A DNA stretch of 64,000 nucleotides. Source: a virus. Positions 15,919 to 47,039 of this stretch are shown here, piece by piece. The notes beneath the pieces are model-generated. The model was not told the origin of the DNA. It worked only from the letters and a program-made list of their open reading frames with translations, and ran no database searches. Position 1 is the first letter of the stretch. Each line of letters opens with the position of its first letter. The translations under genes and the position numbers were made by a program. The stretch is taken from positions 1-64,000 of the IMG/VR virus record IMGVR_UViG_3300025383_000015; one strand, written 5' to 3'.

Positions 15919-16125
15919 TTATAACGGCTTCCAGTTTTTCTTCACTATGAAGTTTTCCCCACCAGAGTTTACAGACTCACCTTCAACCCCTCGGCCAGGA
16001 GATGACCAGGTAACAACAGACGGATTAGCAACCGATTTAAGTGTTGGCTGAACGTATTGGAACTCTTGTTTAACACTTTTGCGGTTATTTACCTTTAATA
16101 CTTTTCTATTAAGTTGCTTACTCAT
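15919..16125 (-). CDS. Small basic protein
   Basis: ATGA overlap with the upstream gene. Confidence 0.55.
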   Translation of the reverse strand: MSKQLNRKVLKVNNRKSVKQEFQYVQPTLKSVANPSVVTWSSPGRGVEGESVNSGGENFIVKKNWKPL

Positions 16126-16427
16126 GCTGGCGATCCTCCAGCAGCACCTGCAGCACTTGATGCGGCTCCGCCTTCACCCAAGCCATTAGCAGTGCTAAGT
16201 CCCATTGAATCTTCTGTAGTAGCCTGAGCAGGGTATTGAGTAGATGCATCCGATGTGGACGTTACAAGATTACCTGCAGATAGTGCACTGGTGTAAGCAG
16301 GGTACATTGTGTACGCATTACCGATTCCCACATAAGTTCCAGCAAGGCCTTCTCTCATAGAGCGGTGACGTTGCATCGCTTCGATGTCGTTGGCTTTTTC
16401 AAACTGCTTACGACTAAGATTGCTCAC
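16122..16427 (-). CDS. Hypothetical protein with N-terminal LSRKQF tag
   Basis: Start reassigned to GTG 16427 after GAAGGA, giving MSNLSRKQF. Confidence 0.6.
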   Translation of the reverse strand: MSNLSRKQFEKANDIEAMQRHRSMREGLAGTYVGIGNAYTMYPAYTSALSAGNLVTSTSDASTQYPAQATTEDSMGLSTANGLGEGGAASSAAGAAGGSPA

Positions 16428-16587
16428 TGATGTTTCCTTCGTTGTAGTTTCCGTAATCTCCGTTTGGTCCGCCATACATACCGTTACTTACATGGTCAAA
16501 CTGAACTGCAGATAGTCTGCTTGCTGGATGATCGTGCGAGTTGTAGTATGCAGTTGTGGTTAAGCGCGTAGGCTCATTGCTTGCCAT
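16414..16587 (-). CDS. Small hypothetical protein (contains LSAVQF)
   Basis: ATG 16587, MASNEPTR. Confidence 0.5.
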   Translation of the reverse strand: MASNEPTRLTTTAYYNSHDHPASRLSAVQFDHVSNGMYGGPNGDYGNYNEGNISEQS

Positions 16588-16780
16588 AGTTAAACACGCC
16601 CTCTGGATCAAATACTGAGATCGACTTCAACACTAGGGGAGTACCAACTTCACGAGCATGATGCCCGCAAAAGAGCAATTCTCCTGAAACCAACTTTGCG
16701 CGAACCTTTGCTTGAGCACCGCATTTATCGCAGCGATCTTGCGCTGTAAAATCAACCTGGGACTCAAGTGTGGTTGTCAT
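16574..16780 (-). CDS. Actinobacterial-type Zn-ribbon protein
   Basis: FTAQDRCDKCGAQA...GELLFCGHH. Confidence 0.7.
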   Translation of the reverse strand: MTTTLESQVDFTAQDRCDKCGAQAKVRAKLVSGELLFCGHHAREVGTPLVLKSISVFDPEGVFNYGKQ

Positions 16781-16938
16781 GGCTTTAGTTTGCCCTCTTT
16801 TTCCTCTGGTGTATGGGCATAATATGACCATAGACGCTTACACAAAATCATATTTCTGCGAGATATGTGGTACTAAGTATGTAGTACCATCGTTGGCTCG
16901 ACATTGCGAATTAAAGCACTTACATTCGGAGGAAAATA

Positions 16939-17124
16939 ATGGCGGTATATGAGTATTCATGCATTCAATGTGACACTACAGTAGACAAAGAGCGCAGCAT
17001 CCACGATCCAGAACCAGAATACTTCTGTGAATCGTGTGGCTACGCCCTTACTCGAGTCTATTCTCCGTTTGGACTTTCATTTAAAGGTGGAGGTTTTTAC
17101 TCCACTGAAAGTCGTAACGTTTAG
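16939..17124 (+). CDS. FmdB-family Zn-ribbon protein
   Basis: YEYSCIQC...CESCG...FKGGGFYSTE. Confidence 0.85.
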   Translation: MAVYEYSCIQCDTTVDKERSIHDPEPEYFCESCGYALTRVYSPFGLSFKGGGFYSTESRNV

Positions 17125-17582
17125 TTGTAGTCAGGTGCAATAACTGGTGGAACTGGTGCTGCAGTAGGAACCGCAGGATCAGCAACCACTGGAGCAGCAG
17201 GTGCTGCAGGGGTTGTATCCACTGGAGCAGCAACAGGTGCGGTTGGCGCAGCAGGTGTGATTGATCCATCAGTAGCAGAGACTGTCATATCAGTTCCTGC
17301 TTGACGTGCTTCTACGGCAAGATCAGCAGCAGTCTTAGCCTGAGTATCGACTGCAGCAAATGCTGCGTTGATTTCGTCGAGTGTCAACTTGCCGTCATCC
17401 ATAAATCCACGAGCCAACTTTTCGATAACAGTTGCACATGCGGTAAGTCCTGCAACGGTCATTGCCTTAAGAGTTGAAATGTGTGCGATAGCACCAGCAC
17501 CGATAACTCCGAGAGCGCTTGCTGTGAAGGCTGCGACTATGCGCATCAACACGTTCCAAAATAGTTTGATATTGTCTTTCAT
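17121..17582 (-). CDS. Membrane protein with EF-hand-like motif and Pro/Ala tail
   Basis: TM segments; DDGKLTLDEIN. Confidence 0.65.
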   Translation of the reverse strand: MKDNIKLFWNVLMRIVAAFTASALGVIGAGAIAHISTLKAMTVAGLTACATVIEKLARGFMDDGKLTLDEINAAFAAVDTQAKTAADLAVEARQAGTDMTVSATDGSITPAAPTAPVAAPVDTTPAAPAAPVVADPAVPTAAPVPPVIAPDYN

Positions 17583-17610
17583 TTCAACCCCTAGGTTGCT
17601 AGAGCCCCCT

Positions 17611-18072: not shown

Positions 18073-18082
18073 TAGGCTATTA

Positions 18083-18394: not shown

Positions 18395-18403
18395 GTCGGT
18401 ACC

Positions 18404-18976
18404 TTATCGTGTTTCTTGTACGTAAATACGTGTCTCTCCACCAGAGTAGACATCATACTCTTTAGCGGCGTCAATAGCGATCGCCATCTCTTTCTTTGCC
18501 TTTTCGATAGTGCTAAGGTCTTTCTTGTACAAAGAGCCTGCAGCAAAGTCTCCACCGCTACCAGATGAGGTAACACCGCGAATTTCACGGTCAAATGAGT
18601 AGTCCTCATCAACCCAGAAAACAACGCCCTGAACTGCAACGATAAACGCACCATCGTGCTGCGCGAACTCGCCATCGTCCTTCATGTCGTAGCCGCCATC
18701 AATAAATAACTTACGCATGGATGGAATAAATGTTCGAGCCATCCACTTGTCTAACTCATCGACAGTCATACGTGACTTGCGAGGCTTTGGTGCTTGCCAA
18801 GCCTTCTGCATCAAGTCCATACCGCGACCCATGCCACAACCAGCGATAAGAATGCCATTGTTGTTAATTACTTTGTCATTTGCCATTTGAAGGCGTTTGT
18901 ATTCACTAACGGTAGATTGGGTGTCTGCACCCATGACAACCCATCCATCTCCTTGGATTGCGGCAATAGTAGTCAA
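18404..18976 (-). CDS. Ntn-hydrolase protease (proteasome beta/HslV-like)
   Basis: MTTIAAI...MGADTQ...K...GSGGDFAAG...YSGG; TTG start with GGAGG RBS. Confidence 0.85.
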   Translation of the reverse strand: MTTIAAIQGDGWVVMGADTQSTVSEYKRLQMANDKVINNNGILIAGCGMGRGMDLMQKAWQAPKPRKSRMTVDELDKWMARTFIPSMRKLFIDGGYDMKDDGEFAQHDGAFIVAVQGVVFWVDEDYSFDREIRGVTSSGSGGDFAAGSLYKKDLSTIEKAKKEMAIAIDAAKEYDVYSGGETRIYVQETR

Positions 18977-19056
18977 GAGTCCTCCTCTAGTAGTCGAAAG
19001 CCCCCCTAGCCTAGCAGACTAGAGGGGCGTTCTGGTAAGTGTCCGATTTATCCTAA

Positions 19057-19851
19057 TTAGGCGTTTTGAAATATCTCCGCCCAAGTCTTAGGGCCAACAA
19101 TACCGTTTGAGTCCAAAGCATCAGATTGGGTCTGTACAGCCATGACAGCCTTCTTGGTAAGTGGGCCATATGAGCCGTCAGCGGTCAAATGGAGGGCTGT
19201 TTGGATCGCGGCTACGTTAGGGCCTGAATCTCCTGGTTGGATCGTTCCTGGGAACGGTAAAATGACTTTAGGGGCTGGTGTGGCTGGGTGTGAAGCGGCG
19301 GCTCCAGCATAGGCTGGACGGCCAAATCCGACCACGGTAGACCAGAGGTGGCGTGAGTTATTCGCCTTGTAGCCACGGACGTTAGAAGCGACTTCTCCGC
19401 CGTTATTTGGGCTGCCCTTAGGCTTGATGTCTGGAGAGGTGTTGCCCTCTACAGTGGTGATTGTGCCATCGCCATTATCCTTGAGTACAACACCTACGTG
19501 TTGAATAGGTGATGTTGGTGTGGCATTTGGAACGAATGAGAAGTAGATCAAGTCACCAGGCTGTGGGTGAGCATTTGCAGCATCTGCCCATGTGCCAGCC
19601 TTCTTGAATGCCGCAGCACCGTTTGGTGTGTAGACAGTGTTAGGGATAGTGACGCCTGCTTGATGGGCGCACCACATCATGAATGAGCCGCACCATGGTT
19701 GGAAATTAGCGCCAGTAAATGCGCCGTATGGTGTCTCGTTATCTTTTGGACCTTCAATAACACCGACCTGTGAAAGTGCTACTTCGAGGAAGCGAGCAGC
19801 AGTTCCTGGCTGTGCGTTAGTTACTGGTGGAATTGGTTTTGGGTCTGCCAT
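19057..19851 (-). CDS. Endolysin (CHAP domain plus peptidoglycan-binding domain)
   Basis: PWCGSF, HVGVV, TVEGNT; DGSYGPLTKKAV and GIVGPKTW. Confidence 0.88.
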   Translation of the reverse strand: MADPKPIPPVTNAQPGTAARFLEVALSQVGVIEGPKDNETPYGAFTGANFQPWCGSFMMWCAHQAGVTIPNTVYTPNGAAAFKKAGTWADAANAHPQPGDLIYFSFVPNATPTSPIQHVGVVLKDNGDGTITTVEGNTSPDIKPKGSPNNGGEVASNVRGYKANNSRHLWSTVVGFGRPAYAGAAASHPATPAPKVILPFPGTIQPGDSGPNVAAIQTALHLTADGSYGPLTKKAVMAVQTQSDALDSNGIVGPKTWAEIFQNA

Positions 19852-23588: not shown

Positions 23589-23699
23589 CTAGCCCAAACT
23601 GTTGGCGGCTACAGGTGTATCTGTTGGGGCAGTTCCGATGTTGTCTGACTCAGTCCGCATATCCTGCATATGGTTTTGAAACTGTTCTCTAGAGAGCAT
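23589..23699 (-). CDS. 36-aa micro-protein starting MLSREQF
   Basis: Not in the ORF track; TAATG-coupled to the upstream gene; shares the N-terminal tag. Confidence 0.55.
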   Translation of the reverse strand: MLSREQFQNHMQDMRTESDNIGTAPTDTPVAANSLG

Positions 23700-24199
23700 T
23701 ACATCAACTGCTTGAAGTGTCCTGGGTGGATATTGGTAGGAACGTAATCCTCTGTCTGGGGCGTTCCACGTCCGAAGTCCGTCATCATGGCTAGGTGACC
23801 GCCGATGCCCTGCTCTTTGTGTTCGGCTAGGTTACCTTGCCTATAGACCGTTACGGGGACGTGGGTTGCACCTGCCTGTATAGCGGCAGCCATTCTATGG
23901 TTGCCCTCACCGATGTAACCCCACTTGTTCTTGTGGTCATATGCCACCATGATGGGATTAGTAATGCCCTTGCCTGACTTGATATCCGAAGCGATGCTGT
24001 TGACGACCTCTCGGCTATTGGAGTGGGCATGCTCGCCCAGACGATCAAACTCCATCAACGGCTTTAACGAGTGAACAGAGACCATACCTGTAGCACTCTC
24101 GGTGGGGTCACCCTCTAGATGTCCCTTTCCTCCCGCATACTTCTGCTCCACATTCTCTGGGACAGGAATCCTAAACTGTTTGGAATTGAGGGCGCTCAT
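23699..24199 (-). CDS. ParB/Srx-like domain protein with N-terminal LNSKQF tag
   Basis: IASDIKSGKGITNPIMV...GEGNHRMAAA...VPV. Confidence 0.75.
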   Translation of the reverse strand: MSALNSKQFRIPVPENVEQKYAGGKGHLEGDPTESATGMVSVHSLKPLMEFDRLGEHAHSNSREVVNSIASDIKSGKGITNPIMVAYDHKNKWGYIGEGNHRMAAAIQAGATHVPVTVYRQGNLAEHKEQGIGGHLAMMTDFGRGTPQTEDYVPTNIHPGHFKQLM

Positions 24200-24429
24200 G
24201 GGTTCTGTTCCTTGTGTGCTTCCCAGGCTTCTTTCATTCCTTTTTTATCTGTCCAATTCCAAGATTGAATTGGTCCAAACTTATTAGTTTTAGTTGGATG
24301 TTTAATAGCGTAATCATCGCAGTGTTCGCATCCAAGGTTAACTCCGCCACGGTCAGTAAACTTAACCATCTTGTGGCGACGCTTGCCTGACTTGGTAAAT
24401 TGCTTGCCTAGGTTTTCTTCAGCGCTCAT
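24196..24429 (-). CDS. Small protein with NLGKQF tag
   Basis: ATGA coupling; CEHC. Confidence 0.6.
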   Translation of the reverse strand: MSAEENLGKQFTKSGKRRHKMVKFTDRGGVNLGCEHCDDYAIKHPTKTNKFGPIQSWNWTDKKGMKEAWEAHKEQNP

Positions 24430-24533: not shown

Positions 24534-24890
24534 TTAGTCTTTAATCTCTTCCATAGTGGATGGGTGGTGCTTACTCAAGACGACAGCCTCGCGGAAATGG
24601 TAGGAAATGCCAGGGATGCGGTGGCGACGAACTGCTTCCTCGTCCACTCTCTTCTGTCCTACGGGCTTTACCTTGTAAATGAAGCCTGATGGACCTGATT
24701 CTGTGGTATCTCCCTCTTTCCAAGCGTAATTTTGGGCTACAAATGCGTGGGGAGTGGCATAGACGCGGTCAGGCTTGTAGTAAGGGTTGTCAGGGCGTGG
24801 GTTGTCTACCCCACGAGCAGCAGGTGACTGAATGACATCTCCTGGCTTTAGGTGCTCTGTAGACCCGTGGAAGAACTCTGAGGCGCTCAT
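24534..24890 (-). CDS. ADP-ribosyltransferase, Arr-like
   Basis: FFHGSTEHLKPGDVI...VYAT...A..YA...IYKVKPVG. Confidence 0.7.
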   Translation of the reverse strand: MSASEFFHGSTEHLKPGDVIQSPAARGVDNPRPDNPYYKPDRVYATPHAFVAQNYAWKEGDTTESGPSGFIYKVKPVGQKRVDEEAVRRHRIPGISYHFREAVVLSKHHPSTMEEIKD

Positions 24891-27963: not shown

Positions 27964-28836
27964 ATGCACTCACTCAATCAATTAATTCCTTCAATAGCAT
28001 CACAAGATCACTACGTAGATCGATCATTCTGTGGAGTCACAGGTGTTCAGATCGCAGACTTCGCACTAAAGAATAAGATCAACATTCTCAATGCTGGTCA
28101 CGCTGGTACAGGTAAGACATCGTTCGCGCAGTACTACGCAAGCCAGAGAGGACTTCCCTATGTATCACTTCCGTCAAACTCAGCACTTAGTGCTAACGAA
28201 TTACAAGGCAACTGGGTCACACAGGACGGCAAACTCGAATGGGTCGACTCAATCTATGTCAAAGTATGGCGTGAAGGTGGAGTGCTCAATCTCGGTGAGG
28301 TTGATCAACTCGCAAAGAATGCTCAGTACTTTTTCCATGAAGGTACAGATCACCGCCGTACACTCACACTCACAGCACACGATTACGAAGTCGTACATGC
28401 TCACCCAGACCTGCTTATCATCGGTGACTGGAACCCAATGTACCGAGGTCGACAACCTCTCTCAGAGTCGTGGGCTGATCGCTTCCAATTAAAACTTCGT
28501 TACGAATACGATCGTGACATCGAAAGCAAGTTTATTCGATCAGGCTCTCTGCTTGATCTTGCATTCGGTATGCGATCACAATCTCGTGGCGTTGATCTAG
28601 GACAAGCAAGCAAGTCCACAGTATTCGAGACACCGATCACTCCACGCATTCTCAAAACGTTCGAATTAGTAGCACGTGAATTGAACTTCGATCTTGCGTG
28701 TGAAGTGTTCGCTAACAACTTCAATGATGAAGAACGACCAGCAGTAAAGATGCTCCTAGAGGGCGCATCATTCAATATCAAGGACGATCTAGGCATCGAT
28801 CAAGAGCAAGTAACACCAGAGTACGAGACAGTCTAA
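27964..28836 (+). CDS. MoxR/CbbQ/CobS-like AAA+ ATPase
   Basis: GHAGTGKT; Walker B variant LNLGEVD; WNPMYRG..PLSESWADRF. Confidence 0.85.
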   Translation: MHSLNQLIPSIASQDHYVDRSFCGVTGVQIADFALKNKINILNAGHAGTGKTSFAQYYASQRGLPYVSLPSNSALSANELQGNWVTQDGKLEWVDSIYVKVWREGGVLNLGEVDQLAKNAQYFFHEGTDHRRTLTLTAHDYEVVHAHPDLLIIGDWNPMYRGRQPLSESWADRFQLKLRYEYDRDIESKFIRSGSLLDLAFGMRSQSRGVDLGQASKSTVFETPITPRILKTFELVARELNFDLACEVFANNFNDEERPAVKMLLEGASFNIKDDLGIDQEQVTPEYETV

Positions 28837-28846
28837 GGAGCACGTC

Positions 28847-30796
28847 ATGAGCGAGATCAACATCACCGATCTAGGTAAGATCTTCGAAGAACTACAAGAG
28901 ATAAGTGAAGAGCAGAAAGAACTAGAGGCTAAACGCCAGCGTATCGAACGATTTACTGGATTCTTCTCTCGAGTTAACTCTGCCTTCTCATTTCGACCTG
29001 TAACAGTTAAGGTCGAGACTTCACCAGTCAAAGCACCAGCGTGGTCTGGGGCTAGTGAAGTGTTCTTCAATTCCAATGAGATCGGTGATCTTGATACGCC
29101 AGAGTCAATCGCTAGCATCAAGGGACTTGATCTTCATGAAGTAAGCCATATCCTTTACACCAGCCGTCAAGGTAGCGATCTCGTTGAGCGAGTGATCGAT
29201 AAGAGCATGTGGACTGCATTCAATGCGTTAGAAGATCAACGTATCGAGTCATTCTTCACTGCTAAGTATCCTTCAACTATCCCATGGTTCGTGTCTATGA
29301 TCTTGATTCACTTCAAGAACAACCCAGAAGTATTCGAGAACTCATACCCACTTCTCTGTGGTCGCAGATACTTGCCAGTCGAGATTCGTAAAGAGTCTCG
29401 TGCGCTATATCCGCATCAAGATAAGATCGATCAATTCAAAGCGATCATCAATGAATACCGCACCCTTGTATTCCCTACAGATACAGATCGTGGAGTCGAA
29501 TTAATCGAGCAGTACTACAACCTGCTACCAAAGAGCGAAGGTGGTAATGGTGAAGAGACTGGTAAGCCAAAGTACAAGGCAGTCAAAGATGACGGCACAG
29601 GTACAGGTACACCAATCAAAGTAATCGACCCATGTGGTCATGGTGCTCGACCAACAGAAGGTATCGAGTCATCAGTCAACTCTCGCCCAGTCCCACCACG
29701 TCAGCAGGAGAAGGAGCGCGATCGTCTTAATAGCCAATCAAAAGATATCGATGATGATCTACCAGAGATTAATGCAGAAGATATTGATTGGTCGGAATTC
29801 AATGGTCAAGATCAAGAGCCTAGTGATCAAAAGTCTGATGATGAGATCACCGACTCTGAAAGTGGAGATGCTCAAGAGCCAAGCGATAACGTGAACTCTG
29901 GAGAAGGTGCTGGCAATACTGCTGGTGAATTAATCGAGACAATCCTCGGTGAGATTCTTAGCCAGTCTGGTATTGCTCAAGAGATCAACGACATGCTACG
30001 AGTGATCAATGGCAAGCCACTTCTGGATTCGAATAACGAAAGCGAACCAATACGTGCTAACTGGAAGGAGTTAGTCCCAGACAACGTGACAGTAGAAGCC
30101 TCTCGATCATTCGGTCGTGAACTTGAACGCTTGCGTGCATCATTCGAACCTGCTTGGGATACCTACGAGAACTCAGGTCGACTCAGTATCGGTCGTTACG
30201 TTAGGGGCGATGACTTCGACACTATCTTCGATCAATGGAACGAAGGTCGTGAAGATGCTACAGATATCGAGTGCGTAATTGTGCTTGATAACTCTGGCTC
30301 AATGAGTGGACAGAAGATCGCAAACGCCAATCGTGCGATGTATGCGATCAAGCGTGCACTCGATCGTATCGATGCAAGCACAACAGTAGTCACGTTCTCT
30401 GACGAAGCACGCCTTCTCTACCATGCAACTGAGAAGTCGAATTCATTCATCAGAGATGCGTTCAGCAACGGCGGTACAGAACCAGATCAAGCGATCAGGT
30501 ATGCAACCAAGGTTCTTGCTGAAAGTAATCGCAAGATCAAGATCTTCTTCGCGATCACTGACGGAGTGTGGTACGGCGATCAAGACACTAACAATGAAGC
30601 GATCGAACGTATGGCTCGCTCTGGTGTGCTGACTGCCTTTGCCTACATTCCAGAGGGCAACGAAGAGATAGAACTGACTGCAAATAAAGCACACAAGTGT
30701 GAGATCGGTGCAGTAGTACGTAATCCATTCGACCTAATTACCATGGCACGAGCGATCGTTAAGTACGCGATCTCTCGCAGACTAACTAACGCATAA
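28847..30796 (+). CDS. VWA-domain protein with N-terminal HExxH motif (CobT-like partner)
   Basis: LHEVSH, FNALEDQRIE, MIDAS DNSGSM...GGT...ITDG. Confidence 0.85.
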   Translation: MSEINITDLGKIFEELQEISEEQKELEAKRQRIERFTGFFSRVNSAFSFRPVTVKVETSPVKAPAWSGASEVFFNSNEIGDLDTPESIASIKGLDLHEVSHILYTSRQGSDLVERVIDKSMWTAFNALEDQRIESFFTAKYPSTIPWFVSMILIHFKNNPEVFENSYPLLCGRRYLPVEIRKESRALYPHQDKIDQFKAIINEYRTLVFPTDTDRGVELIEQYYNLLPKSEGGNGEETGKPKYKAVKDDGTGTGTPIKVIDPCGHGARPTEGIESSVNSRPVPPRQQEKERDRLNSQSKDIDDDLPEINAEDIDWSEFNGQDQEPSDQKSDDEITDSESGDAQEPSDNVNSGEGAGNTAGELIETILGEILSQSGIAQEINDMLRVINGKPLLDSNNESEPIRANWKELVPDNVTVEASRSFGRELERLRASFEPAWDTYENSGRLSIGRYVRGDDFDTIFDQWNEGREDATDIECVIVLDNSGSMSGQKIANANRAMYAIKRALDRIDASTTVVTFSDEARLLYHATEKSNSFIRDAFSNGGTEPDQAIRYATKVLAESNRKIKIFFAITDGVWYGDQDTNNEAIERMARSGVLTAFAYIPEGNEEIELTANKAHKCEIGAVVRNPFDLITMARAIVKYAISRRLTNA

Positions 30797-33783: not shown

Positions 33784-35067
33784 GTGGCTATGGCTTATGT
33801 AGTGCAACGCGGTAAGCGATTTACCGCCTATTATCGTCTCAACGGCAAACGCCTCTCGGCTGGCACATGGGATTCCTATGCCAAGGCTGAGGCTTCGGCT
33901 ATGAAGGCTGAGGTTCTGGGCTTCTCAGAGCCTTCTGGGGCTGATTCCAGCCTTGCCACATACTTCACCAAGTGGCTCAAGACGGCTGATCTTATGCCGA
34001 TCACCAAGAAGCACTATGAATTAACTTTTCGAACATACGTTCTAAATCGCCTAGGCTCTCATGAAGTAACTTCCATTTCGGCCAAACAGATTCGAAAGTT
34101 ACTTAGTGATCTTAGACTCGAGGGCGTTAAGCCTGCCACGCTGGGACAGATCAAAGCATGCCTAGGGTCAGCCTTCGCCTCTCTCGTGGAGAATGAGGAG
34201 ATAGCGGTCAATCCCACCCATGGCATCAAGGTCAAGGTCAACCAGCCAGACCTGCACAATGTCCTAGAGCCTGCCGAATTCAAGAAGATACTAAGTAACT
34301 TACCTGGCGGAACCGGTTCCGGTGCAAAGTTACTTGCCAAGATGCTCGTTCTTTCTGGTGCTCGCTTTGGTGAGGCTACAGAACTCAGGGTAAAAGACTT
34401 CAATTTTAACTCTGGCGAGGTATTTATCCAGAGACGCGTGAGTGAATTGGGCGCAACCTACAACTCTGGCGAGAGATTCAAGGTTATAGATGCCACCAAG
34501 TCGGGCAGAAAACGCTCAATAACACTCTCAAAAGCCCTATTACATGAGATTAAAGCGTATGTCCTAGCAAAAGACCTACAAAAAGATGACCTACTCTTCC
34601 CAAGGAGCATCGTGTTAACGGCAGGTAAACTAGAACCTTCACGCGAGATCGATACTTCGCAGCCATACGCTGCGGGGGGAAAACGCTTCAAGCATGGAAC
34701 GCTATACTCCTACACCCATGGTGGCTGTAGATGCCAAGCCTGCAGGGAGGCAGTGCGAAAGCACCGCCAAGCCAAGGCAAGGTCAAAGGTAAAGCAGACC
34801 ATGACCAACGATAAGAGCCACTTACCGCGTGGAGTCTGGAGAACTACATGGAACCAAGCAATAGCCAAGTCAGGAATTGGCTGGACTCCTAGAACCCATG
34901 ACCTCCGTCATGCCAACGCCACCCTGTTGTTAAAGAACGGGGTAGACGTACATGAGGTCAAGGAACGTCTAGGTCACCAGTCAATTAAAACAACGGAGAG
35001 GTATTTACACCGCCTCCGTCACCAGCAGTCAACGGCAGGAGAACTCGCCAATGACTTTATGGAGTGA
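33784..35067 (+). CDS. int: Tyrosine recombinase/integrase with inserted Cys/His module
   Basis: GARFGE, HDLRH, LGH, TERY catalytic residues. Confidence 0.92.
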   Translation: MAMAYVVQRGKRFTAYYRLNGKRLSAGTWDSYAKAEASAMKAEVLGFSEPSGADSSLATYFTKWLKTADLMPITKKHYELTFRTYVLNRLGSHEVTSISAKQIRKLLSDLRLEGVKPATLGQIKACLGSAFASLVENEEIAVNPTHGIKVKVNQPDLHNVLEPAEFKKILSNLPGGTGSGAKLLAKMLVLSGARFGEATELRVKDFNFNSGEVFIQRRVSELGATYNSGERFKVIDATKSGRKRSITLSKALLHEIKAYVLAKDLQKDDLLFPRSIVLTAGKLEPSREIDTSQPYAAGGKRFKHGTLYSYTHGGCRCQACREAVRKHRQAKARSKVKQTMTNDKSHLPRGVWRTTWNQAIAKSGIGWTPRTHDLRHANATLLLKNGVDVHEVKERLGHQSIKTTERYLHRLRHQQSTAGELANDFME

Positions 35068-38762: not shown

Positions 38763-40280
38763 CTAATCTTCGATAGATGACTGAATAATCTTCGTGACTG
38801 ACTCTTCCTTGAGAGTTTCAGGTAGTTCACGAAGTGCTTGAGCCCTATCTCCGAAGATTGCGGACAGCACTCCACCAGAAGATTGACGGCTTGCAGTGAT
38901 CTGAATGAACTCTTTATTCTGATCCATCTCGTTGACATTGCCAACCAACTTGAGTAGTCGATCGATCTCTTGCGAGAGATTTGGATCTGCGTATCCACCA
39001 TTCATTTCTTCAGCAAAACGCATAAAAGCCACTCTTTGCCCCTGCATTTCGATAATTGCAGTGAGTAACGCCTTGAGTTGATCTTTTGTTTTTACCTCAA
39101 CTGGCAGGTTGAAGGCGCACTGATTCTGGGGCTTAAAGGCTGGACAATTGCTTGCAACGAAGCAGGTGTCACACTGACGAAGGCTTGCCTGTTGGGTATG
39201 AACGACGGGGACATCTCGCAGAACATCCTTGCCGTCATCTCCTGTCTCTACGATTGTTTTGGTCTTGAAGCCAAACACTGGAAGATTTTGCATCTCTTCT
39301 GGGGCGCGTTCTACCACTTCGGAGCGTTCTTGTTTCCGCACTTCGGGAGCACTAATGTCAGATGGTGTACCCCCCATTTCCATCATTAGCCCCGTATACA
39401 GATCATCACTGTTATCAGATACTATGTCCTTTTTTCCCCCATCAATGACGTGGAAGGTAGGCGGTTTCTTCTCCATAGCGGACTCCATCTGTAGGTATGA
39501 CCAGACTGCAACTCTAGTCGATTCGAGGGTACTATCTTTAACAAACTCAGAATAGTCTAGCCCAGCACGCTCTACGACAGTCTTGTAACGGATGCGGGCT
39601 TGGTCTTTCATGCGCTTGGGATAGCGCTTGATCTGCTTGCCGTCCCAGACGATCGTCTCGCCTCTACGCATAGGTGAGAGCCACGACAATGTGCTGGCAG
39701 AGCCAAATGGTATCTGTCGAAGGTTGTCTGGCTTGGCACAGCCAAGGGCGTGGAAAGTGGTTCCTGTCTGCCGTGCAAGACCGCGTGTGACACCTGACAG
39801 GTTAGTTACCGACTCAATCTCAGAGTTAGGAATAAGTATGTTGGGATAACGGCCCGCAAGTTCTCGCAAGTTACTTATCCCGTAGGATTCATGCCAGACT
39901 ACCCATAACTTTGGATCGTTCTCAAAGAAAGGACGCTGGGCTTCAATCCACTCTCTACCTAATACCTGTGAGTCAAACTCGTGGAAGGCTAGGGCGCGAT
40001 CTGCGTTGTTGACAAGAAACTCTTGGTATTCAGAGGCTAGGGCGAGTAGTTCCTGCCTTGATAGCCCAGCCTTATCCGCTTGAGCAGCACCTGACTCAAT
40101 GATGACTTGAGTCTCAGGAGTGAAATGTTCGCTAATCAGCCAGATCTTAGTCTTAGGCAACCCACGCTTACGAAGACCCCAGAAGTTGAGTCCCATCGCC
40201 TCAACTTTCATACCTTCTAAGAGCGTGCGGTTAGAGCCTACTTCGGCTCCTGAGAATACGATCTTAGTCAGAGTACTCAC
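38763..40280 (-). CDS. TGT/DpdA-like TIM-barrel protein (divergent) fused to a Cys4 Zn module and helical tail
   Basis: IIESGA, FHALG, SASTLSW..RRG resemble TGT-like DSGA/HxLG/SxDSxSW; CDTC..C...C. Confidence 0.45.
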   Translation of the reverse strand: MSTLTKIVFSGAEVGSNRTLLEGMKVEAMGLNFWGLRKRGLPKTKIWLISEHFTPETQVIIESGAAQADKAGLSRQELLALASEYQEFLVNNADRALAFHEFDSQVLGREWIEAQRPFFENDPKLWVVWHESYGISNLRELAGRYPNILIPNSEIESVTNLSGVTRGLARQTGTTFHALGCAKPDNLRQIPFGSASTLSWLSPMRRGETIVWDGKQIKRYPKRMKDQARIRYKTVVERAGLDYSEFVKDSTLESTRVAVWSYLQMESAMEKKPPTFHVIDGGKKDIVSDNSDDLYTGLMMEMGGTPSDISAPEVRKQERSEVVERAPEEMQNLPVFGFKTKTIVETGDDGKDVLRDVPVVHTQQASLRQCDTCFVASNCPAFKPQNQCAFNLPVEVKTKDQLKALLTAIIEMQGQRVAFMRFAEEMNGGYADPNLSQEIDRLLKLVGNVNEMDQNKEFIQITASRQSSGGVLSAIFGDRAQALRELPETLKEESVTKIIQSSIED

Positions 40281-40768: not shown

Positions 40769-41800
40769 CTAAATGCCTGATTCTCTTCCATATAAATGCG
40801 CATTACTTCCTGAAGGATGTGGGTAATTAACAGAAGGCTTTTGTATTTGTGGTTTTGGTATGTTTGGTTTAGTGCCATCAAGGTATGTACGGTTACCTAC
40901 ACTGTCAATTAAGTGGCTAGGTCCTTCTACTTTAAAACCCTTAGGAGAAGTAAAAACAGAAGAACCTTCGTTTGTAACTGCAGAACTATCCAGTGGAGAA
41001 ACTTTGTGAACTACTCCAAACAACGACTGTTGTTGAGCATGTCCTGGAAGAGATCTCGTTCCGCTCATAGAGTCTTGAGCATACATTTCTGCAGTTTTAG
41101 GCTCTGAAGTAGAAAATGCTGTTCCTTGAGAAGTGGCGCCACCAGGCCTAATTACTTCTCCTGGTTTCATGGCTACATTGTTTCCATGGTACAACTGAGG
41201 TGTACTAGACGGTTTAAATTGTGCTGGGTTTGTAACTGTGTGCGAATCTGGAAGGATATTACTTGCAGGTTTAGACATTCTTTGAGCAGCACCGCCAAAC
41301 ATATCTAGTTGCTCTACGTGACCTGCACCAGATAGATGACCAGCATCAGAACTAATGCGAGCAACACTGCCTACAGAATCTGCACTCTTAAGCATGTCTC
41401 CGCCCTTAACAGCAGCATTTAGACCAATATCTAATCCTTTAATTCCTTCACCAATTCCAGGAACAACCATCGCCGCTGTAGAGGCTGCGTTAATTCCTCC
41501 CATAATTGAGTGGCCAATACCACCAGCAATACCGCTAAATCCACCTCTAGAAAAGTCTTGTCCTGCTTGCCTAAAATCCGTGGCACCAGTTGTTGATGAA
41601 ATGGCATTACCTAATGCGTTTGCTTTATAAGGGGAAAATGTGGTTCCACCCGAAGTGGTTGCAGGAGTTGATGTAGTCGCAGTTTGACTTGCCATTGAAG
41701 GTGCTGTTGGGAGTGTGAACCCTCCAGAAGAGCCCATAGATGAACCTGCTGAACCAGAAGTAGAGGGACCAAACTGACTACCACTTAATGATGAGGCCAT
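40769..41800 (-). CDS. Tagged protein (LSGSQF) with Gly-rich region and C-terminal Arr-like ART domain
   Basis: LYHGNNVAMKPGEVIRPG...FSTS....A..YA...VHKVSP. Confidence 0.55.
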   Translation of the reverse strand: MASSLSGSQFGPSTSGSAGSSMGSSGGFTLPTAPSMASQTATTSTPATTSGGTTFSPYKANALGNAISSTTGATDFRQAGQDFSRGGFSGIAGGIGHSIMGGINAASTAAMVVPGIGEGIKGLDIGLNAAVKGGDMLKSADSVGSVARISSDAGHLSGAGHVEQLDMFGGAAQRMSKPASNILPDSHTVTNPAQFKPSSTPQLYHGNNVAMKPGEVIRPGGATSQGTAFSTSEPKTAEMYAQDSMSGTRSLPGHAQQQSLFGVVHKVSPLDSSAVTNEGSSVFTSPKGFKVEGPSHLIDSVGNRTYLDGTKPNIPKPQIQKPSVNYPHPSGSNAHLYGRESGI

Positions 41801-42738
41801 TATCGTGTACTCCTGTAAGTTGCTGCTCTTCTAATAAGGGTCTGAGTATCTGGTAACTGTACGCCGTAGTTCTCTTCGGCAGTTCCTTCTTTGTACGCTT
41901 GCAAGTAGTCGTGCATCTGGCGAAGTGCTGGAATGGTTCCGTATTTCTTTCCTGCTTGCCAACGATAATTGTAGAAATCTGAATAACCTTCGCCGTTTTG
42001 GTTAAAGGCGTATCTACGAGCATGGTGAATATCATCAAACAACGCTGAACCTTGAGATAACGATGCTTGCAAACGTGTTTCGGCATTTCTGCGTGCTGCA
42101 TCGTTTTGAGCACCTTGTAAATCTGCAAGGGCTTTGGAGTAACGTCCGACAATATCTGAGGCTACATCACGATCACGTTGCGCTAACGCTTCCCATACAG
42201 GACGATAAGGTGCACTCTGTTGTTGTGGGTGTACAGTCCACTCGTTGTGCGTAAGATCGTATGCAGCGTATGGGTTGATTGACGTAATGTCTGTTGCGCC
42301 AGGATTAACGTAGAAAGTTACTTCAAACCCATTCCAGTTTTCTGTCTCTGGTTGTAGGTAGGTGCGAAAATCTTCGTTGAGCATTTGGCTGATTTCTGTA
42401 TCGCCAAGTCCAAGGTATTCAGGGTTGGCTTTACGGAATTGAATATAGTTTACTCCGATAAGAACATCTAGATCTCCAGGCTCACGAGCAGCAGACCATT
42501 GGTATGAAACGCCAGAACCAGCAATCCATACATGTGCCCATAGATCGGCATGACGATACTTTTCATGCAAGAAGTCAAACAGCAACTGCATCAAGCCAGA
42601 ACGAACCCAACCTTTAAGTTGGTTGCCTGAAAATAAACGAGGATCTAAATCGTGTTCAGGGGTAGAAAAATAGGACGTGGCTCTGCCTTCTAAATTGATA
42701 GGTTGAACAAACCTATCGAGACCATCAGAGCGATTCAT
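41800..42738 (-). CDS. Pol-beta-superfamily nucleotidyltransferase
   Basis: IAGSGVSYQW....GDLDVLI. Confidence 0.7.
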   Translation of the reverse strand: MNRSDGLDRFVQPINLEGRATSYFSTPEHDLDPRLFSGNQLKGWVRSGLMQLLFDFLHEKYRHADLWAHVWIAGSGVSYQWSAAREPGDLDVLIGVNYIQFRKANPEYLGLGDTEISQMLNEDFRTYLQPETENWNGFEVTFYVNPGATDITSINPYAAYDLTHNEWTVHPQQQSAPYRPVWEALAQRDRDVASDIVGRYSKALADLQGAQNDAARRNAETRLQASLSQGSALFDDIHHARRYAFNQNGEGYSDFYNYRWQAGKKYGTIPALRQMHDYLQAYKEGTAEENYGVQLPDTQTLIRRAATYRSTR

Positions 42739-44804: not shown

Positions 44805-45024
44805 TAGAACAACTCCCCTTTGTCATGGTGCTTTTGCATGTGCTCTTTTGCAGCCCGCAGTGTTGGGTAGTACAGCCCAGTTGGGTGAGATGAGAACCAC
44901 ACTCTTCCTGTTGGAGTGTTAGACGCATCTACTTGCAACCCACAACAACCCGTGTATGATCCTGCAAAGTTTTTCTTTACGCTAAATTTGTGACCACTAC
45001 CATGATCAAATTCTTCAGATTTGG

Positions 45025-45666
45025 TCATCCGATTGCTCCTCGATGTTGTACCCACGTTGTGGCTTGTACCTTGTGCGGTAGTTCAATACCTAGTTCGTTT
45101 GATGCGTGCTTATACGCCTGCTCAAAATGCTTGTAACGACCCATAGCACTTAATCCAAGATCAACGTTTGCTTTTCCTGGCATGTTCTCTGGTGTGGCTG
45201 TGCCACGGAACGGAATACCTACCGCAATATCGTGAGCATGGCGATCAATCGTTACAGGGTTTGGATTGCTAGGATCAACAATGTTCTCGTAAAAACTACG
45301 GACTTTATGTCCACCAAGAACTGTGCGCGGATCTTCTCCTGCATGAATTCGTAATGCTTTGTTTAAGTTATCTTCTGTGTGTGATGCTGTACCGTGATGA
45401 AACAACTCGGTTGCTAAGTCAATGTTACGACCCCAACCAGTCTGGGGTGAAAGGGCTGCAATAACTCCTGCGCCTCTTTCTACATTTCCTTTTCCTAAAG
45501 TGTTTGCAATATCGTGAGCACGCTCGTACCACTCGTGTCCGCCTTTTAACATCTCTGGAGATGCTTGGCGATACTTGTCCATGATGTTACTTACATGGGC
45601 TTGAAACTGCTGTTGAGCAAGGTTCTTATCCCAACGACCGTGTGGATCTACGCCAAATTTAGCCAT
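45025..45666 (-). CDS. HhH-glycosylase-like domain protein
   Basis: WYERA...AGVIAALSPQTGW..N...KVRSF...VTIDRHA...QATTW. Confidence 0.55.
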   Translation of the reverse strand: MAKFGVDPHGRWDKNLAQQQFQAHVSNIMDKYRQASPEMLKGGHEWYERAHDIANTLGKGNVERGAGVIAALSPQTGWGRNIDLATELFHHGTASHTEDNLNKALRIHAGEDPRTVLGGHKVRSFYENIVDPSNPNPVTIDRHAHDIAVGIPFRGTATPENMPGKANVDLGLSAMGRYKHFEQAYKHASNELGIELPHKVQATTWVQHRGAIG

Positions 45667-45667
45667 G

Positions 45668-46201
45668 TTATGCCCACGCAGGTCTCAAGTAAGCAAGCAT
45701 CGCTTGACGGCGTGCATTAATCTCTACAGGTTCGTTAGCCATTGTGTTGGCTTTACCATCGTTAACAAGGTGTGGAGCAGGAGCCAACTGGGTTTGTGGT
45801 GCAGCCCTTGGAACTTTAAATACCATACCGCCATCAACATCAACCAACTTGGCTTTCATTTGACGCTTAAGACCGCTCTCCATGTTGACAGAGTCAGGCC
45901 AAAAATACATAGACGGCTCAATGCGCTCACCTTTGTGGACGCCACGTTGGTATGACTTCTGATTGACACGATTCTTGATTGAATCCAATAGGCGATCATC
46001 GCGACGTGAACGGATTGTGCCTAAATAACCGTCAGGATATTCTGCTGATGGGATACGTCCAACACCAATACGAGACTGGTCTAAGGAATCGCGAGCAACA
46101 GGGGTACCAGCACCTGTTTGGTTGTTGTACCCATACATGCCACCAGCGCCAAGAGACTGCCAGTTCTGTTGCGGAGAAAAGTTGTTATAACCGCCAGCCA
46201 T
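45668..46201 (-). CDS. Hypothetical protein
   Basis: AEYPDGYLGTIRSRRDDRLL...RGVHKGERI. Confidence 0.65.
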   Translation of the reverse strand: MAGGYNNFSPQQNWQSLGAGGMYGYNNQTGAGTPVARDSLDQSRIGVGRIPSAEYPDGYLGTIRSRRDDRLLDSIKNRVNQKSYQRGVHKGERIEPSMYFWPDSVNMESGLKRQMKAKLVDVDGGMVFKVPRAAPQTQLAPAPHLVNDGKANTMANEPVEINARRQAMLAYLRPAWA

Positions 46202-46797
46202 TATTCACGACCGATCACTTTACGTTGCTTCATAGCGCGGTTTGTGTTGATTGTTTGAAGCACTTCACCAAACTTATGTCCAGAATCTGACGTCTTTTCC
46301 CAGTCTTTGTTCTGGTATTCAGACTTGGTAAAACTTCCCTTGCCACCCTTCATATCAAGAGCGCCAGGACGGTAATTAGGATCTACATCGTTCTTACCAA
46401 ATTGACCCATGTGAAGAAGAACTGCACCGCCGTTTGGTCCAACAGTTGCACCCTTTTTGTTTACTGGAGTGTGTGGCAATCCGTAGGATTCCATTTCACC
46501 AACAGTTGTACCCATGGAACGAGCAGCATTTGGCGTTGGAGCCTTTACTGAAATGTCTTGAGTACGTCCCCATGCTCCGTGAATTGCTCCAGGAACATTT
46601 GCTGCTACAGCAGCATTTTTATTGTGAAATGACCCAATGTCTTCACTCGTCAAATCGTGCTCTGAAGTATGTTCTGCTTCAGGAATTGCTGCAGTCATAA
46701 ATCCACGACCAGTTACAGGCTCACGGCTAAAATAGCCGATAGATCCGCCACCGTGCTCTTTAACGTGTGCAGCAAACTCATCGTTGCTTAGTGGCAT
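46201..46797 (-). CDS. Hypothetical protein with MPLSNDEF tag
   Basis: GGAG RBS; GG.I...G+M...HGAW...DIS pattern. Confidence 0.6.
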   Translation of the reverse strand: MPLSNDEFAAHVKEHGGGSIGYFSREPVTGRGFMTAAIPEAEHTSEHDLTSEDIGSFHNKNAAVAANVPGAIHGAWGRTQDISVKAPTPNAARSMGTTVGEMESYGLPHTPVNKKGATVGPNGGAVLLHMGQFGKNDVDPNYRPGALDMKGGKGSFTKSEYQNKDWEKTSDSGHKFGEVLQTINTNRAMKQRKVIGRE

Positions 46798-46799
46798 GG

Positions 46800-47039
46800 T
46801 TACTCCTTGACGTCTGGCAATGAAGATTTATTATCTTCAAATTTGTAAACTGTACCTGCAGTCTTTGCTGAGTATGGCATAGTACGTCCTTGACCCAAGG
46901 AACGGTTAGACCACGCTGTGGCTGCTCCGCTGCTTGTGTTCGTTGATGAACTCAAGGAAAGTGGTGCAGGTGTTTCTTCATGGTGCTGAAACATCTGTCC
47001 GCTTTTCATGTTTTCACCGAACTCGGACATTGACAACAT
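46800..47039 (-). CDS. Small protein starting MLSMSEF
   Basis: Start reassigned to ATG 47039, just after the upstream stop codon. Confidence 0.55.
   Translation of the reverse strand: MLSMSEFGENMKSGQMFQHHEETPAPLSLSSSTNTSSGAATAWSNRSLGQGRTMPYSAKTAGTVYKFEDNKSSLPDVKE

What the first reader, a model, noticed from the sequence alone, without database searches (positions are those of the whole stretch)
16122..47039. Shared N-terminal [LM]-[SNAG]-x-x-[QE]-F tag on about 10 unrelated proteins: candidate virion-cargo loading and injection system
Seen: otherwise dissimilar minus-strand proteins begin with the same short motif. By start position: MSNLSRKQF (16427), MLSREQF (23699, not in the ORF track), MSALNSKQF (24199, ParB-like), MSAEENLGKQF (24429, one residue shorter), MSASEF (24890, Arr-like ART), MASSLSGSQF (41800), MPLSNDEF (46797) and MLSMSEF (47039). 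Near-N-terminal copies are NLAQQQF (45666, HhH-like) and RLSAVQF (16587). The 41800 protein also has NPAQF just before its ART domain. I saw no such start in the early plus-strand genes; in core genes only weak look-alikes (terminase internal LSQQF, MSKQEF at 52070). Established: T4 internal proteins share a short N-terminal capsid-targeting sequence, and ART, ParB and HhH domains are typical of phage anti-defence and polyvalent proteins. Inference: a portable peptide address that loads a modular effector set into the head for delivery with the DNA, or marks a common protease site.
Basis: partly seen in the sequence, partly recalled or inferred. Interest (0 to 1): 0.85.

Follow-up and report, generated by a model that had tools for sequence, protein, structure and literature searches.

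The report
Shared N-terminal address tag, actinophage effectors
A group of uncultured freshwater phages of Actinobacteria puts the same short peptide (…N-L-S-x-x-Q-F) at the very start of dozens of unrelated small enzymes; it looks like a swappable address label for one common partner, possibly the virus particle, but that destination is unproven.

Summary
Every listed start is in the sequence.

- **Statistics:** A 6-residue profile trained only on tagged families that have no member in this genome puts its five best hits of the whole 155-protein set at protein starts (Fisher p = 1.5e-5).
- **Relatives:** Genes next to the ParB-like gene form variable tandem clusters of up to about 7 to 9 genes. 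They all open with M-S-A-x-[DN]-N-L-S-x-x-Q-F, on at least 28 body types. The nine largest families show no profile similarity to each other.
- **Structure:** In the ParB-like protein the tag is conserved yet predicted to be disordered.
- **Tag swap:** A 44%-identical ParB-like ortholog in an unrelated high-GC phage starts with MSLLWK instead. Three to four neighbouring genes there carry the same opening, just upstream of the tail sheath gene.
- **Cargo:** The tagged bodies (ParB-like, GNAT, Arr-like and others) recur as fused domains of giant polyvalent-type proteins elsewhere.

46797 is a helix cap, 45666 lies inside DUF7178, 24890 is a degenerate tag and 16587 is internal.

A portable address is well supported. 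Loading into the head is plausible, at about 40%. A cleavage mark has no support. This scan found similar tag arrays before in T4-like and jumbo phages, but not in this clade.

The parts
23699..24199 (-). ParB/Srx-fold protein (166 aa). Canonical tag MSALNSKQF is encoded at 24173-24199.
   Evidence: Tag confirmed. L4, Q8 and F9 are at least 90% conserved in 23 diverse orthologs (A2), yet residues 1-13 have pLDDT below 50. Foldseek top hits are ParB N-domain and sulfiredoxin. PSSM score 16.7 bits.
24196..24429 (-). 77-aa basic protein of unknown function. Tag MSAEENLGKQF (short variant) is encoded at 24397-24429.
   Evidence: Family F73 keeps M[ST]AE[ED]NLGKQF in close relatives. No Pfam or PHROG hit.
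23589..23699 (-). 36-aa ORF starting MLSREQF. Its ATG overlaps the stop of the ParB-like gene.
   Evidence: Best PSSM hit of the genome, 20.0 bits. The same ORF is kept in close relatives L060-L063 and L127. Whether it is a real gene is not proven.
24534..24890 (-). 118-aa Arr-like ADP-ribosyltransferase candidate with a degenerate tag MSASEF, directly followed by FHGS.
   Evidence: phrog_17296, E = 5e-10. Clusters with L122 2809-3180, which starts MAQNPNLNPMQFYHGS (F165). Three of 18 sequences in alignment A3 (17 F3 members plus this protein) hit Pfam Arr-ms below threshold, with the domain starting at residue 15.
16122..16427 (-). 101-aa protein from a GTG start, with tag (M)SNLSRKQF encoded at 16401-16427.
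   Evidence: PSSM score 18.1 bits. L065 has the same GTG start and the same 14-nt overlap with the upstream ORF. In other relatives the two ORFs are fused and the tag lies near residue 32, just after a Met.
16414..16587 (-). 57-aa ORF with an internal tag-like RLSAVQF (residues 24-30), overlapping the next gene by 14 nt.
   Evidence: The L065 counterpart has PLSSSQF, and both end in GNISEQS.
40769..41800 (-). 343-aa protein: tag MASSLSGSQF, then about 60 residues rich in Ser, Gly and Thr, a Gly-rich hydrophobic stretch, and a C-terminal body that clusters with the Arr-like family F3.
   Evidence: PSSM score 11.3 bits. Some homologs keep SSSQF, LSSGQF or SSPQF at the start; others do not. The gene is absent from relatives G001-G005, i.e. 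it is an insertion between two conserved genes. F3 membership. No Pfam or PDB hit.
46800..47039 (-). 79-aa protein starting MLSMSEF.
   Evidence: PSSM score 11.4 bits. The tag is kept in orthologs at 82% identity or more. Distant orthologs have LSxxQ followed by G, T or N, not F; G007 has MPLSSSQF.
46201..46797 (-). 198-aa core protein starting MPLSNDEF. This is a look-alike: the motif is the N-cap and first turn of helix 1.
   Evidence: F8 is invariant in 19 homologs. AF2 places a helix at residues 5-15 with mean pLDDT 94 over residues 1-10 and 88 over 11-20. F is replaced by L in L026 and L038. PSSM score only 5.2 bits. No fold match.
45025..45666 (-). DUF7178 protein with NLAQQQF at residues 15-21, an internal look-alike.
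   Evidence: Pfam PF23802, E = 1.5e-49, with the match starting at residue 17. F changes to M or L in orthologs. The family also occurs fused to the ParB-like domain in P0184.
41800..42738 (-). 312-aa untagged core protein (family F32, nucleotidyltransferase-like). It is the most frequent fusion partner of the ParB-like domain in giant proteins.
   Evidence: Atlas neighbours are named nucleotidyltransferase, and 12% of one neighbouring cluster carry NTP_transf_2.
18404..19851 (-). HslV-family peptidase (18404-18976) and CHAP plus PG-binding lysin (19057-19851), the conserved neighbours of the tag cluster.
   Evidence: The same order (tag cluster, ParB-like gene, lysin, HslV-like gene) is seen in the relatives' loci listed. 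Both genes are missing from G002 and G003, which also lack the cluster.

Best explanation
The peptide (M)-S-A-x-[DN]-N-L-[SN]-x-x-Q-F, with its shorter form L-G-[KR]-Q-F, is a lineage-specific docking tag at the free N-terminus of small, fast-turning-over effector-type proteins. These include ParB/Srx-like, GNAT and two ART-like families, plus many proteins of unknown function.

The bodies are stand-alone versions of the domains that other phages string together in giant polyvalent proteins. Here each solo domain carries its own address instead of a covalent link.

One common receptor reads the tag. The most likely receptor is a component of the assembling virion, so that the set travels into the next host with the DNA. 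This would work like the capsid-targeting sequence of T4 internal proteins, but without a T4-type protease site.

**Shown:**
- The tag exists.
- It lies at protein starts.
- It is under selection at the protein level.
- It sits on unrelated bodies.
- It is replaced as a whole in another phage lineage.
- The bodies match polyvalent-protein domains.

**Inferred:** that a single receptor exists, and that it belongs to the virion.
For: **Position and spread of the tag**
- L[SN]x[KRQ]QF lies in the first 10 residues in 115 of 125 occurrences among 2,318 unique proteins of related contigs.
- All 221 tagged genes are co-oriented with the ParB-like gene, with up to 7 strict tags in loci of 18 to 23 genes.
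- About 28 to 30 body types carry the tag, and conservation stops after F.
- The bodies are unrelated by hhalign.

**Features of a short linear motif**
- The ParB-like tag is conserved but has pLDDT below 50.
- Tags are often followed by Gly-, Pro- or Ser-rich stretches.

**Address replaced by lineage**
- A ParB-like ortholog at 44% identity in the 62%-GC phage G006 starts MSLLWK.
- Four G006 genes and five G011/L149 genes start MSLLW. They are interleaved with three conserved genes (phrog_2806, 2819, 2748) directly upstream of the tail sheath, i.e. inside a structural operon.

**Cargo is a polyvalent-protein repertoire**
- Thirty-six giant proteins combine the ParB-like domain with one or more of GNAT (F57), Arr-like (F3), F1, F32, F39 (DUF7178), F56 or F135. 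P0092, for example, has F1, ParB, F32, ART-like and four GNAT domains.
- Three of 8 tagged families match the giants, against 4 of 113 untagged families.
- Solo ParB-like proteins have [QE][FW] near the start in 25 of 63 cases, the giants in 5 of 85.

**Literature**
- T-even internal proteins are diverse and share only the CTS (PMC3012670).
- Polyvalent proteins and solo ParB-like domains are predicted or shown to be packaged (T4 Alt, P1 DdrB; PMC5512222).
- The P1 dar genes share a late operon with lysis genes. Here too the cluster adjoins the holin-like and lysin genes.
Against: - No virion proteomics exist for any relative. No cultured phage carries the ParB-like family.
- No structural protein carries the tag.
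- No S78 protease was found, and no S77 hit (for S77 the control genomes were silent too). There is no cleavage motif after F.
- In G000 and in the complete relative G007 the cluster is the promoter-proximal part of the leftward block, next to the divergent intergenic region. That is a typical place for early genes. Promoter scans were uninformative.
- G002 and G003 have capsid, scaffold-position and portal proteins 57 to 86% identical to G000's, yet no cluster. The putative receptor would then be idle there.
- The ParB-like family is not detectably related to P1 DdrB.
- The tag occasionally occurs near a C-terminus or after a 30-aa leader.
Confidence: 0.4

Rival explanations
1. The tag docks early-made effectors onto a partner that is not part of the virion. 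This could be a host hub protein that they modify or hijack, or the phage's own HslV-family peptidase encoded just downstream, which would clear or activate them at a set time (a phage-specified degron).
For: - The cluster lies at the promoter-proximal end next to the divergent control region.
- The HslV-like gene is a constant neighbour. It is present in G000, G001, G007 and G008 and absent from G002 and G003, which lack the cluster.
- The tag is disordered and ends in a large hydrophobic residue. From general knowledge, not tested here, this resembles HslV's preference for cleavage after hydrophobic residues and the activating HslU tail.
Against: - Two MSLLW-bearing genomes that are at least 94% complete (G012, G013, one MSLLW start each) have no HslV family member, with working controls.
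- Phage DSL-LC01 has an HslV gene but no shared tags in the 40 kb around it.
- No HslU-like unfoldase was seen among the proteins annotated here; it was not searched for specifically.
- The co-occurrence rests on only a few related genomes and may be plain synteny.
- In the MSLLW lineage the tagged genes sit in a tail and neck operon.
Confidence: 0.27
2. The tags make the solo domains assemble with each other or on an untagged scaffold such as the 312-aa F32 protein. This would rebuild a non-covalent polyvalent complex whose site of action is the cytoplasm.
For: - The same domains are covalently joined in giant proteins.
- F32 is the commonest partner there, and it is untagged and conserved in all relatives examined.
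Against: - F32 and the cluster lie about 17 kb apart.
- G002 and G003 keep F32 but have no cluster.
- There is no evidence of any interaction.
Confidence: 0.1
3. There is no common function. The starts are a generic helix N-cap (hydrophobic staple plus capping box) together with family-specific N-terminal segments, and they look alike through chance, common descent by duplication, or reader selection.
For: - This is true for 46797: AF2 places a helix at residues 5-15 with high confidence.
- It is true for DUF7178.
- In the ParB-like family the tag position aligns with [LI]-G-R-K-E-H-P-N of the giant proteins, so part of it is ancestral to that family.
- Ser and Asn codons in the tag are skewed, as shared descent would give.
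Against: - The independently trained PSSM ranks N-termini first.
- 115 of 125 occurrences lie at protein starts.
- In the ParB-like, 343-aa and 77-aa proteins the tag is followed by Pro- or Gly-rich, non-helical sequence.
- The bodies are unrelated.
- The whole tag is swapped in another lineage.
- Control phages lack it.
Confidence: 0.1
4. The motif marks a common cleavage site, with processing after Q-F by a head-maturation protease or another protease.
For: - By analogy, the T4 CTS is removed by gp21.
- The tag ends uniformly in Q-F.
Against: - No residue preference follows F.
- No S77 or S78 protease was detected.
- The strict motif occurs at background density in the giant proteins (0.11 per 1000 aa) and is not enriched before their domains.
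Confidence: 0.08
5. The conserved feature is in the nucleic acid, for example a translation-initiation or regulatory element spanning the first codons, rather than in the peptide.
For: - The Ser codon in the tag is TCT in 85% of cases, against 32% elsewhere.
- Three G000 tags share ATGAGCGC.
- The MSLLW starts are nearly identical in DNA.
Against: - Leu, Gln and Phe codons follow genome-wide synonymous usage.
- G000's own tags use four Ser codons at the Ser position (AGT twice, TCT, AGC, TCA), and Asn or Gly at two others.
- The distance from the ATG varies from 0 to 5 residues.
- Upstream sequences are not conserved.
Confidence: 0.05

Closest known systems
Capsid-targeting sequence (CTS) of phage T4 internal proteins IPI, IPII, IPIII and Alt, with their hypervariable loci
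   Same: A peptide of about 10 residues at the extreme N-terminus is the only thing shared by a diverse, fast-changing set of small proteins encoded in tandem. The cargo includes ADP-ribosyltransferase-type and anti-defence-type activities (PMC3012670; PMC5512222).
   Different: - The sequence is unrelated to the T4 CTS.
- There is no L/I-x-E cut site and no gp21-type protease.
- The phage is a BRock-like actinophage (MCP about 60% identical to BRock), not T4-like.
- Packaging has not been demonstrated.
- The cluster lies next to lysis genes and a divergent control region rather than among head genes.
Polyvalent proteins of phages and conjugative elements (Iyer, Burroughs, Anand, de Souza, Aravind 2017)
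   Same: The domain repertoire is the same: ParB-like, GNAT, ART and nucleotidyltransferase-like domains. The very families tagged here are fused in giant proteins of 500 to 3000 aa.
   Different: Here every domain is a separate small protein with a short N-terminal tag. The giants lack the tag at their N-termini (5 of 85) and at their domain junctions. The 2017 paper proposes folded 'header' domains, not a short peptide.
Phage P1 Dar system (Hdf, DarA, DdrA, DdrB, DarB), head-packaged anti-restriction proteins
   Same: Accessory proteins, including a ParB-like one, are encoded in an operon joined to lysis genes and delivered with the DNA.
   Different: No detectable homology to DdrB (hhalign probability 0.9%). 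The calls made here turned up no shared short tag among the Dar proteins.
Encapsulin cargo-loading peptides
   Same: A short terminal peptide on a flexible linker addresses unrelated enzymes to the inside of an HK97-fold shell.
   Different: These peptides are usually C-terminal and have a different consensus. No encapsulin is involved here, and nothing was tested beyond the analogy.
Other shared-tag arrays noted by this scan in T4-like and jumbo phages (e.g. e1-5956725, M-N-W-Y-K-x-A-Q)
   Same: Arrays of unrelated small genes share one N-terminal tag. The MSLLWKxA tag of the high-GC lineage resembles the W-Y-K-x-A motif.
   Different: Those arrays are in huge or T4-like phages, mostly with a protease motif at the end of the tag. 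This one is in actinophages of about 100 kb without such a motif, and its cargo can be mapped onto polyvalent proteins.

Membership tests
T4-type capsid-targeting sequence system | A short N-terminal peptide shared by otherwise unrelated small proteins | tested here: met
T4-type capsid-targeting sequence system | Cargo genes lie in a hypervariable tandem locus | tested here: met
   The number and identity of tagged genes differ between close relatives while the flanking ParB-like, lysin and HslV-like genes stay.
T4-type capsid-targeting sequence system | The tag ends in the L/I-x-E site of a gp21-type (S77) prohead protease encoded by the phage | tested here: not met
   The tag ends in Q-F with nothing conserved after it. 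There is no PF03420 hit, though the controls were silent too. There is no PF04586 hit, with working controls.
T4-type capsid-targeting sequence system | Tagged proteins are physically inside the capsid | not testable with these tools
   No cultured relative and no proteome are available.
Polyvalent proteins (Iyer et al. 2017) | Two or more effector domains in one polypeptide | tested here: not met
   The G000 proteins are single-domain, 36 to 343 aa.
Polyvalent proteins (Iyer et al. 2017) | Domain repertoire shared with polyvalent proteins | tested here: met
   ParB-like, GNAT, Arr-like, F1, F32 and DUF7178 families all match domains of giant proteins.
ParB/Srx fold (protein 23699-24199) | ParB N-domain / sulfiredoxin fold with the GxxHR-type motif | tested here: met
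   Foldseek top hits are ParB and Srx, probability 1.00, E about 1e-3. Orthologs carry precomputed PF02195. GEGxHR is conserved. The G000 protein itself is below the Pfam cut-off, 17.1 against 26.3 bits.
Arr-type ADP-ribosyltransferase (24534-24890, C-terminus of 40769-41800, family F3) | Match to Arr-ms / H-Y-E-type ART motifs | tested here: inconclusive
   Three of 18 A3 sequences hit PF12120 at E = 7e-4, 20 bits against a cut-off of 25. H-G-[ST], Y and V-E-P columns are conserved. The profile finds nothing in the PDB.
HslV / proteasome beta family (18404-18976) | Ntn-hydrolase family match with Thr right after the initiator Met | tested here: met
   phrog_1040, E = 1e-22. PF00227 at 27.4 bits, above the cut-off. 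The protein starts M-T-T-I.
Helix N-capping box / hydrophobic staple (generic structural motif) | The motif is the first turn of a packed helix | tested here: met
   Met for 46201-46797 only (helix 5-15; mean pLDDT 94 over residues 1-10 and 88 over 11-20). Not met for the ParB-like protein, where residues 1-13 are coil with pLDDT below 50.

The most novel reading that the evidence does not exclude
Actinophages have an undescribed sorting code that can be read from sequence. A short N-terminal peptide, specific to each phage lineage (N-L-S-x-x-Q-F in one, M-S-L-L-W in another, possibly M-S-R-x-x-E-F in a third), replaces the covalent linkage of polyvalent proteins and delivers a freely exchangeable set of solo effector enzymes to one receptor in the virion. 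If so, a phage's injected arsenal could be listed from its genome alone, and any protein could be loaded by adding the tag.
Probability: 0.35. Interest if true: 0.85.

Novelty: new variant of a known kind. Interest (0 to 1): 0.72.

Why it matters
Proteins that phages inject with their DNA act first in the contest with host defences, yet outside T4, P1, N4 and a few others they cannot be recognised from sequence.

A short tag shared by unrelated small enzymes, and exchanged as a unit between phage lineages, would give a direct way to list such proteins. This applies to the abundant, mostly uncultured phages of freshwater Actinobacteria.

It would also link two known solutions: T4's tagged internal proteins and the giant polyvalent proteins. 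And it would provide a minimal handle for loading foreign proteins.

If the receptor turns out not to be the virion, the finding is still a new short linear motif system. Its partner, whether a host hub or the phage's HslV-type peptidase, would be worth identifying.

Tried and rejected
**Searches that gave nothing**
- Megablast and tblastn of several tagged proteins against cultured phages found nothing.
- PDB sequence and profile searches for the 343-aa, 118-aa, F3 and F1 proteins found nothing.
- Foldseek found no fold for the 198-aa protein.
- Open-access literature searches found no description of this tag.

**Ideas tested and rejected or left open**
- *P1 DdrB homology of the ParB-like family:* rejected.
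- *Tag as an inter-domain linker or cut site in giant proteins:* rejected.
- *HslV peptidase as an obligatory partner:* weakened.
- *A phage-specific promoter motif to date the cluster's expression:* nothing was found. The sigma-70 scan gave 13 sites against 15.5 expected, and no intergenic 9-mer was shared by more than three upstream regions, none pointing to a promoter class.
- *Receptor search by phyletic profile:* 30 genes are shared by the cluster-bearing genomes only, and no single candidate stands out.
- *Clamp-binding, SSB-tail, HbYX and Prp/L27-type motifs:* considered from memory and set aside because order or position does not fit. None was tested.

Full report
**What the window is.**
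- The window is the first 64 kb of a 100,324-bp virus contig that CheckV rates as complete.
- It encodes terminase, portal and a major head protein about 60% identical to that of Streptomyces phage BRock.
- It also encodes WhiB, a class II ribonucleotide reductase, family A DNA polymerase, RecA, DnaB and a tyrosine integrase.
- Close relatives are all metagenomic contigs.
- WhiB marks phages of Actinobacteria (PMC6802176).

**Checking the observation.**
- In my gene calls, 155 in the final run, L[SNAG]xx[QE]F occurs 11 times in about 30.3k residues, and five or six of these start within the first five residues.
- The motif had been fitted by eye, so I redefined it independently. I built a 6-residue PSSM from 36 tagged families in related contigs that have no member in this genome.
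- The top hits of this PSSM across all positions of the proteome are 23699, 16427, 24199, 47039 and 41800, all at protein starts, followed by 45666 at residue 16. Nothing else scores above 8.5 bits, and Fisher p = 1.5e-5.
- The same test is positive in relatives G007 (6 against 0, p = 7e-9), G008 and G001. It is null in G002, G003 and the unrelated G006.
- 24429 has the one-residue-shorter form NLGKQF. The same short form (LGRQF) occurs in ParB-like orthologs.
- The GTG start at 16427 is supported by L065. That locus has the same GTG and the same 14-nt overlap with an upstream ORF ending in GNISEQS.
- Leu codons vary as they do in the gene bodies, which indicates a constraint on the protein. 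Ser and Asn codons are skewed, and I cannot explain that.

**The tag is much bigger than the window shows.**
- Seventy-three loci fetched around ParB-like homologs hold tandem, co-oriented clusters whose products open with M-S-A-x-[DN]-N-L-S-x-x-Q-F. Examples are L118 2723-6513, L130 2873-6495, L076, L079 and L113.
- Of 855 unique proteins in those loci, 153 match a strict regular expression for the tag.
- Across 2,318 unique proteins, L[SN]x[KRQ]QF lies in the first ten residues 115 times out of 125.
- All 221 tagged genes are on the ParB-like gene's strand.
- About 28 to 30 body types carry the tag, and conservation ends abruptly at F.
- Bodies of the nine largest families give hhalign probabilities of at most 1.1% against each other.
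- Identified bodies are:
  - ParB/Srx fold;
  - GNAT;
  - an Arr-like family whose Pfam match starts at residue 15, right after the tag;
  - a family with an R-G … H-W-T … E-x-E pattern that I read as ART-like from memory only.
  - Most of the rest are unknown.

**Structure context.**
- In the ParB-like family L4, Q8 and F9 are at least 90% conserved, yet residues 1-13 have pLDDT below 50 and are followed by a Pro-rich stretch. That is the signature of a short linear binding motif.
- In the 198-aa family the similar string is the N-cap and first turn of a confidently modelled helix, and F can be replaced by L. I treat 46797 as a look-alike.
- 45666 lies inside DUF7178, and its F changes to M or L in orthologs.
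- 24890 is a worn-down tag; its L122 homolog has the full form.

**The tag changes with the phage lineage, not with the protein.**
- A 62%-GC contig (G006) shares almost nothing with this phage. Its ParB-like protein is 44% identical over the full length and starts MSLLWK where ours has MSALNSKQF.
- Three more G006 genes, and five genes of another contig (L149/G011), also start MSLLW. They are interleaved with three conserved genes directly upstream of the tail sheath.
- Representatives of the ParB-like family across 1.84 billion proteins show further N-terminal variants, such as MSRSDEF, MGRNNADF and ENIGQQL.

**The cargo is a split polyvalent protein.**
- The same search showed the ParB-like domain either solo or inside giant proteins (85 representatives longer than 230 aa, up to about 3,000 aa).
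- A start containing [QE][FW] occurs in 25 of 63 solo forms against 5 of 85 giants.
- HMMs of the families from these phages were run against the giants. Three of 8 tagged families (F1, Arr-like F3, GNAT F57) match them, against 4 of 113 untagged families.
- Two of those four untagged families are this window's 41800-42738 (F32) and DUF7178.
- Thirty-six giants combine two or more of these families in one chain. Pfam independently finds GNAT and PARP domains in two of them.
- The tag motif is at background density in the giants and is not enriched at their domain junctions.
- Iyer et al. 2017 argue that such proteins, and solo ParB-like domains, are packaged and injected. They cite T4 Alt, P1 DdrB and DarB, N4 vRNAP and MuF (PMC5512222).

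**Where does the tag send its cargo?**

*For the virion:*
- the T4 precedent, in which diverse internal proteins share only the CTS (PMC3012670);
- the polyvalent-type repertoire of the cargo;
- the position of the MSLLW genes in a neck and tail operon;
- the resemblance to the P1 dar-lysis operon.

*Against the virion:*
- no proteome exists;
- no structural protein carries the tag;
- no prohead protease family was found;
- in G000 and the complete G007 the cluster is the first part of the leftward block, next to the divergent intergenic region, which would suit early genes;
- promoter scans gave nothing.

*For the HslV link:* the HslV-family peptidase gene is always beside the cluster and is missing from G002 and G003, which lack it.

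*Against the HslV link:*
- two near-complete genomes with an MSLLW start have no HslV;
- phage DSL-LC01 has HslV without tags.

**Verdict.**
Six solid members lie in the window (16427, 23699, 24199, 24429, 41800, 47039), one is degenerate (24890) and three are look-alikes or uncertain (46797, 45666, 16587).
- A portable address read by a common partner is well supported.
- Virion loading is the best single guess, at about 0.4.
- A partner outside the virion (a host hub or the HslV-type peptidase) is a serious rival.
- The cleavage idea has no support.

This scan has reported comparable tag arrays in T4-like and jumbo phages. This case differs in three ways: the clade, the lack of a protease motif, and the mapping of its cargo onto polyvalent proteins.

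Noticed in passing
window 18404-18976 (-): The phage encodes an HslV-family Ntn peptidase that starts M-T-T-I. No HslU-like partner was seen among the proteins annotated here. The gene is present in G000, G001, G007 and G008 and absent from G002 and G003. Its role is unknown.
   Followed up: partly
window 23699-23740 (-), C-terminus of the ParB-like protein: The family ends in a conserved H-P-x-H-F-K-Q-F, so K-Q-F stands at both ends of the protein. This could be self-mimicry of the tag or a second docking site. Unexplained.
   Followed up: no
L134 12939-17071 (G006) and L149 338-5292: A second tag, M-S-L-L-W-[KRV], sits on four and five unrelated genes. They are interleaved with phrog_2806, 2819 and 2748 genes just upstream of the tail sheath in high-GC phages. 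The DNA of these starts is almost identical (ATGAGCCT[CG]CT[CA]TGG).
   Followed up: partly
L118 5498-6004; L130 3744-3956 and 4939-5304; P0102, P0128, P0173: A possible third tag type, M-S-R-[GSN]-x-E-F, occurs on other proteins of the same clusters and on distant solo ParB-like proteins. The window's MSASEF (24890) and MSKQEF (52070) may belong to it.
   Followed up: no
window 16401-16440 (-): Two ORFs overlap by 14 nt (…GNISEQS stop / GTG-SNLS…), and in most relatives they form one fused ORF. This could be a frameshift site or a recent split.
   Followed up: partly
window 40769-41800 (-): The 343-aa tagged protein is an insertion between two genes that are adjacent in relatives (L008 6667-8100). 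Its middle part has a Gly-rich hydrophobic stretch. No family hit.
   Followed up: partly
window 27964-30796 (+) and 33790-35067 (+): The plus-strand island holds an AAA_5 ATPase with a VWA (CobT-like) partner, and a tyrosine integrase. The integrase suggests a temperate or integrative lifestyle.
   Followed up: no
window 38763-40280 (-): A 505-aa protein matches phrog_887 (queuine tRNA-ribosyltransferase-like), which suggests DNA base modification.
   Followed up: no
G000 81110-82725 (beyond the window): A run of Lys-rich microproteins of 44 to 101 aa, mostly starting M-A-K, lies between the neck and head genes.
   Followed up: no
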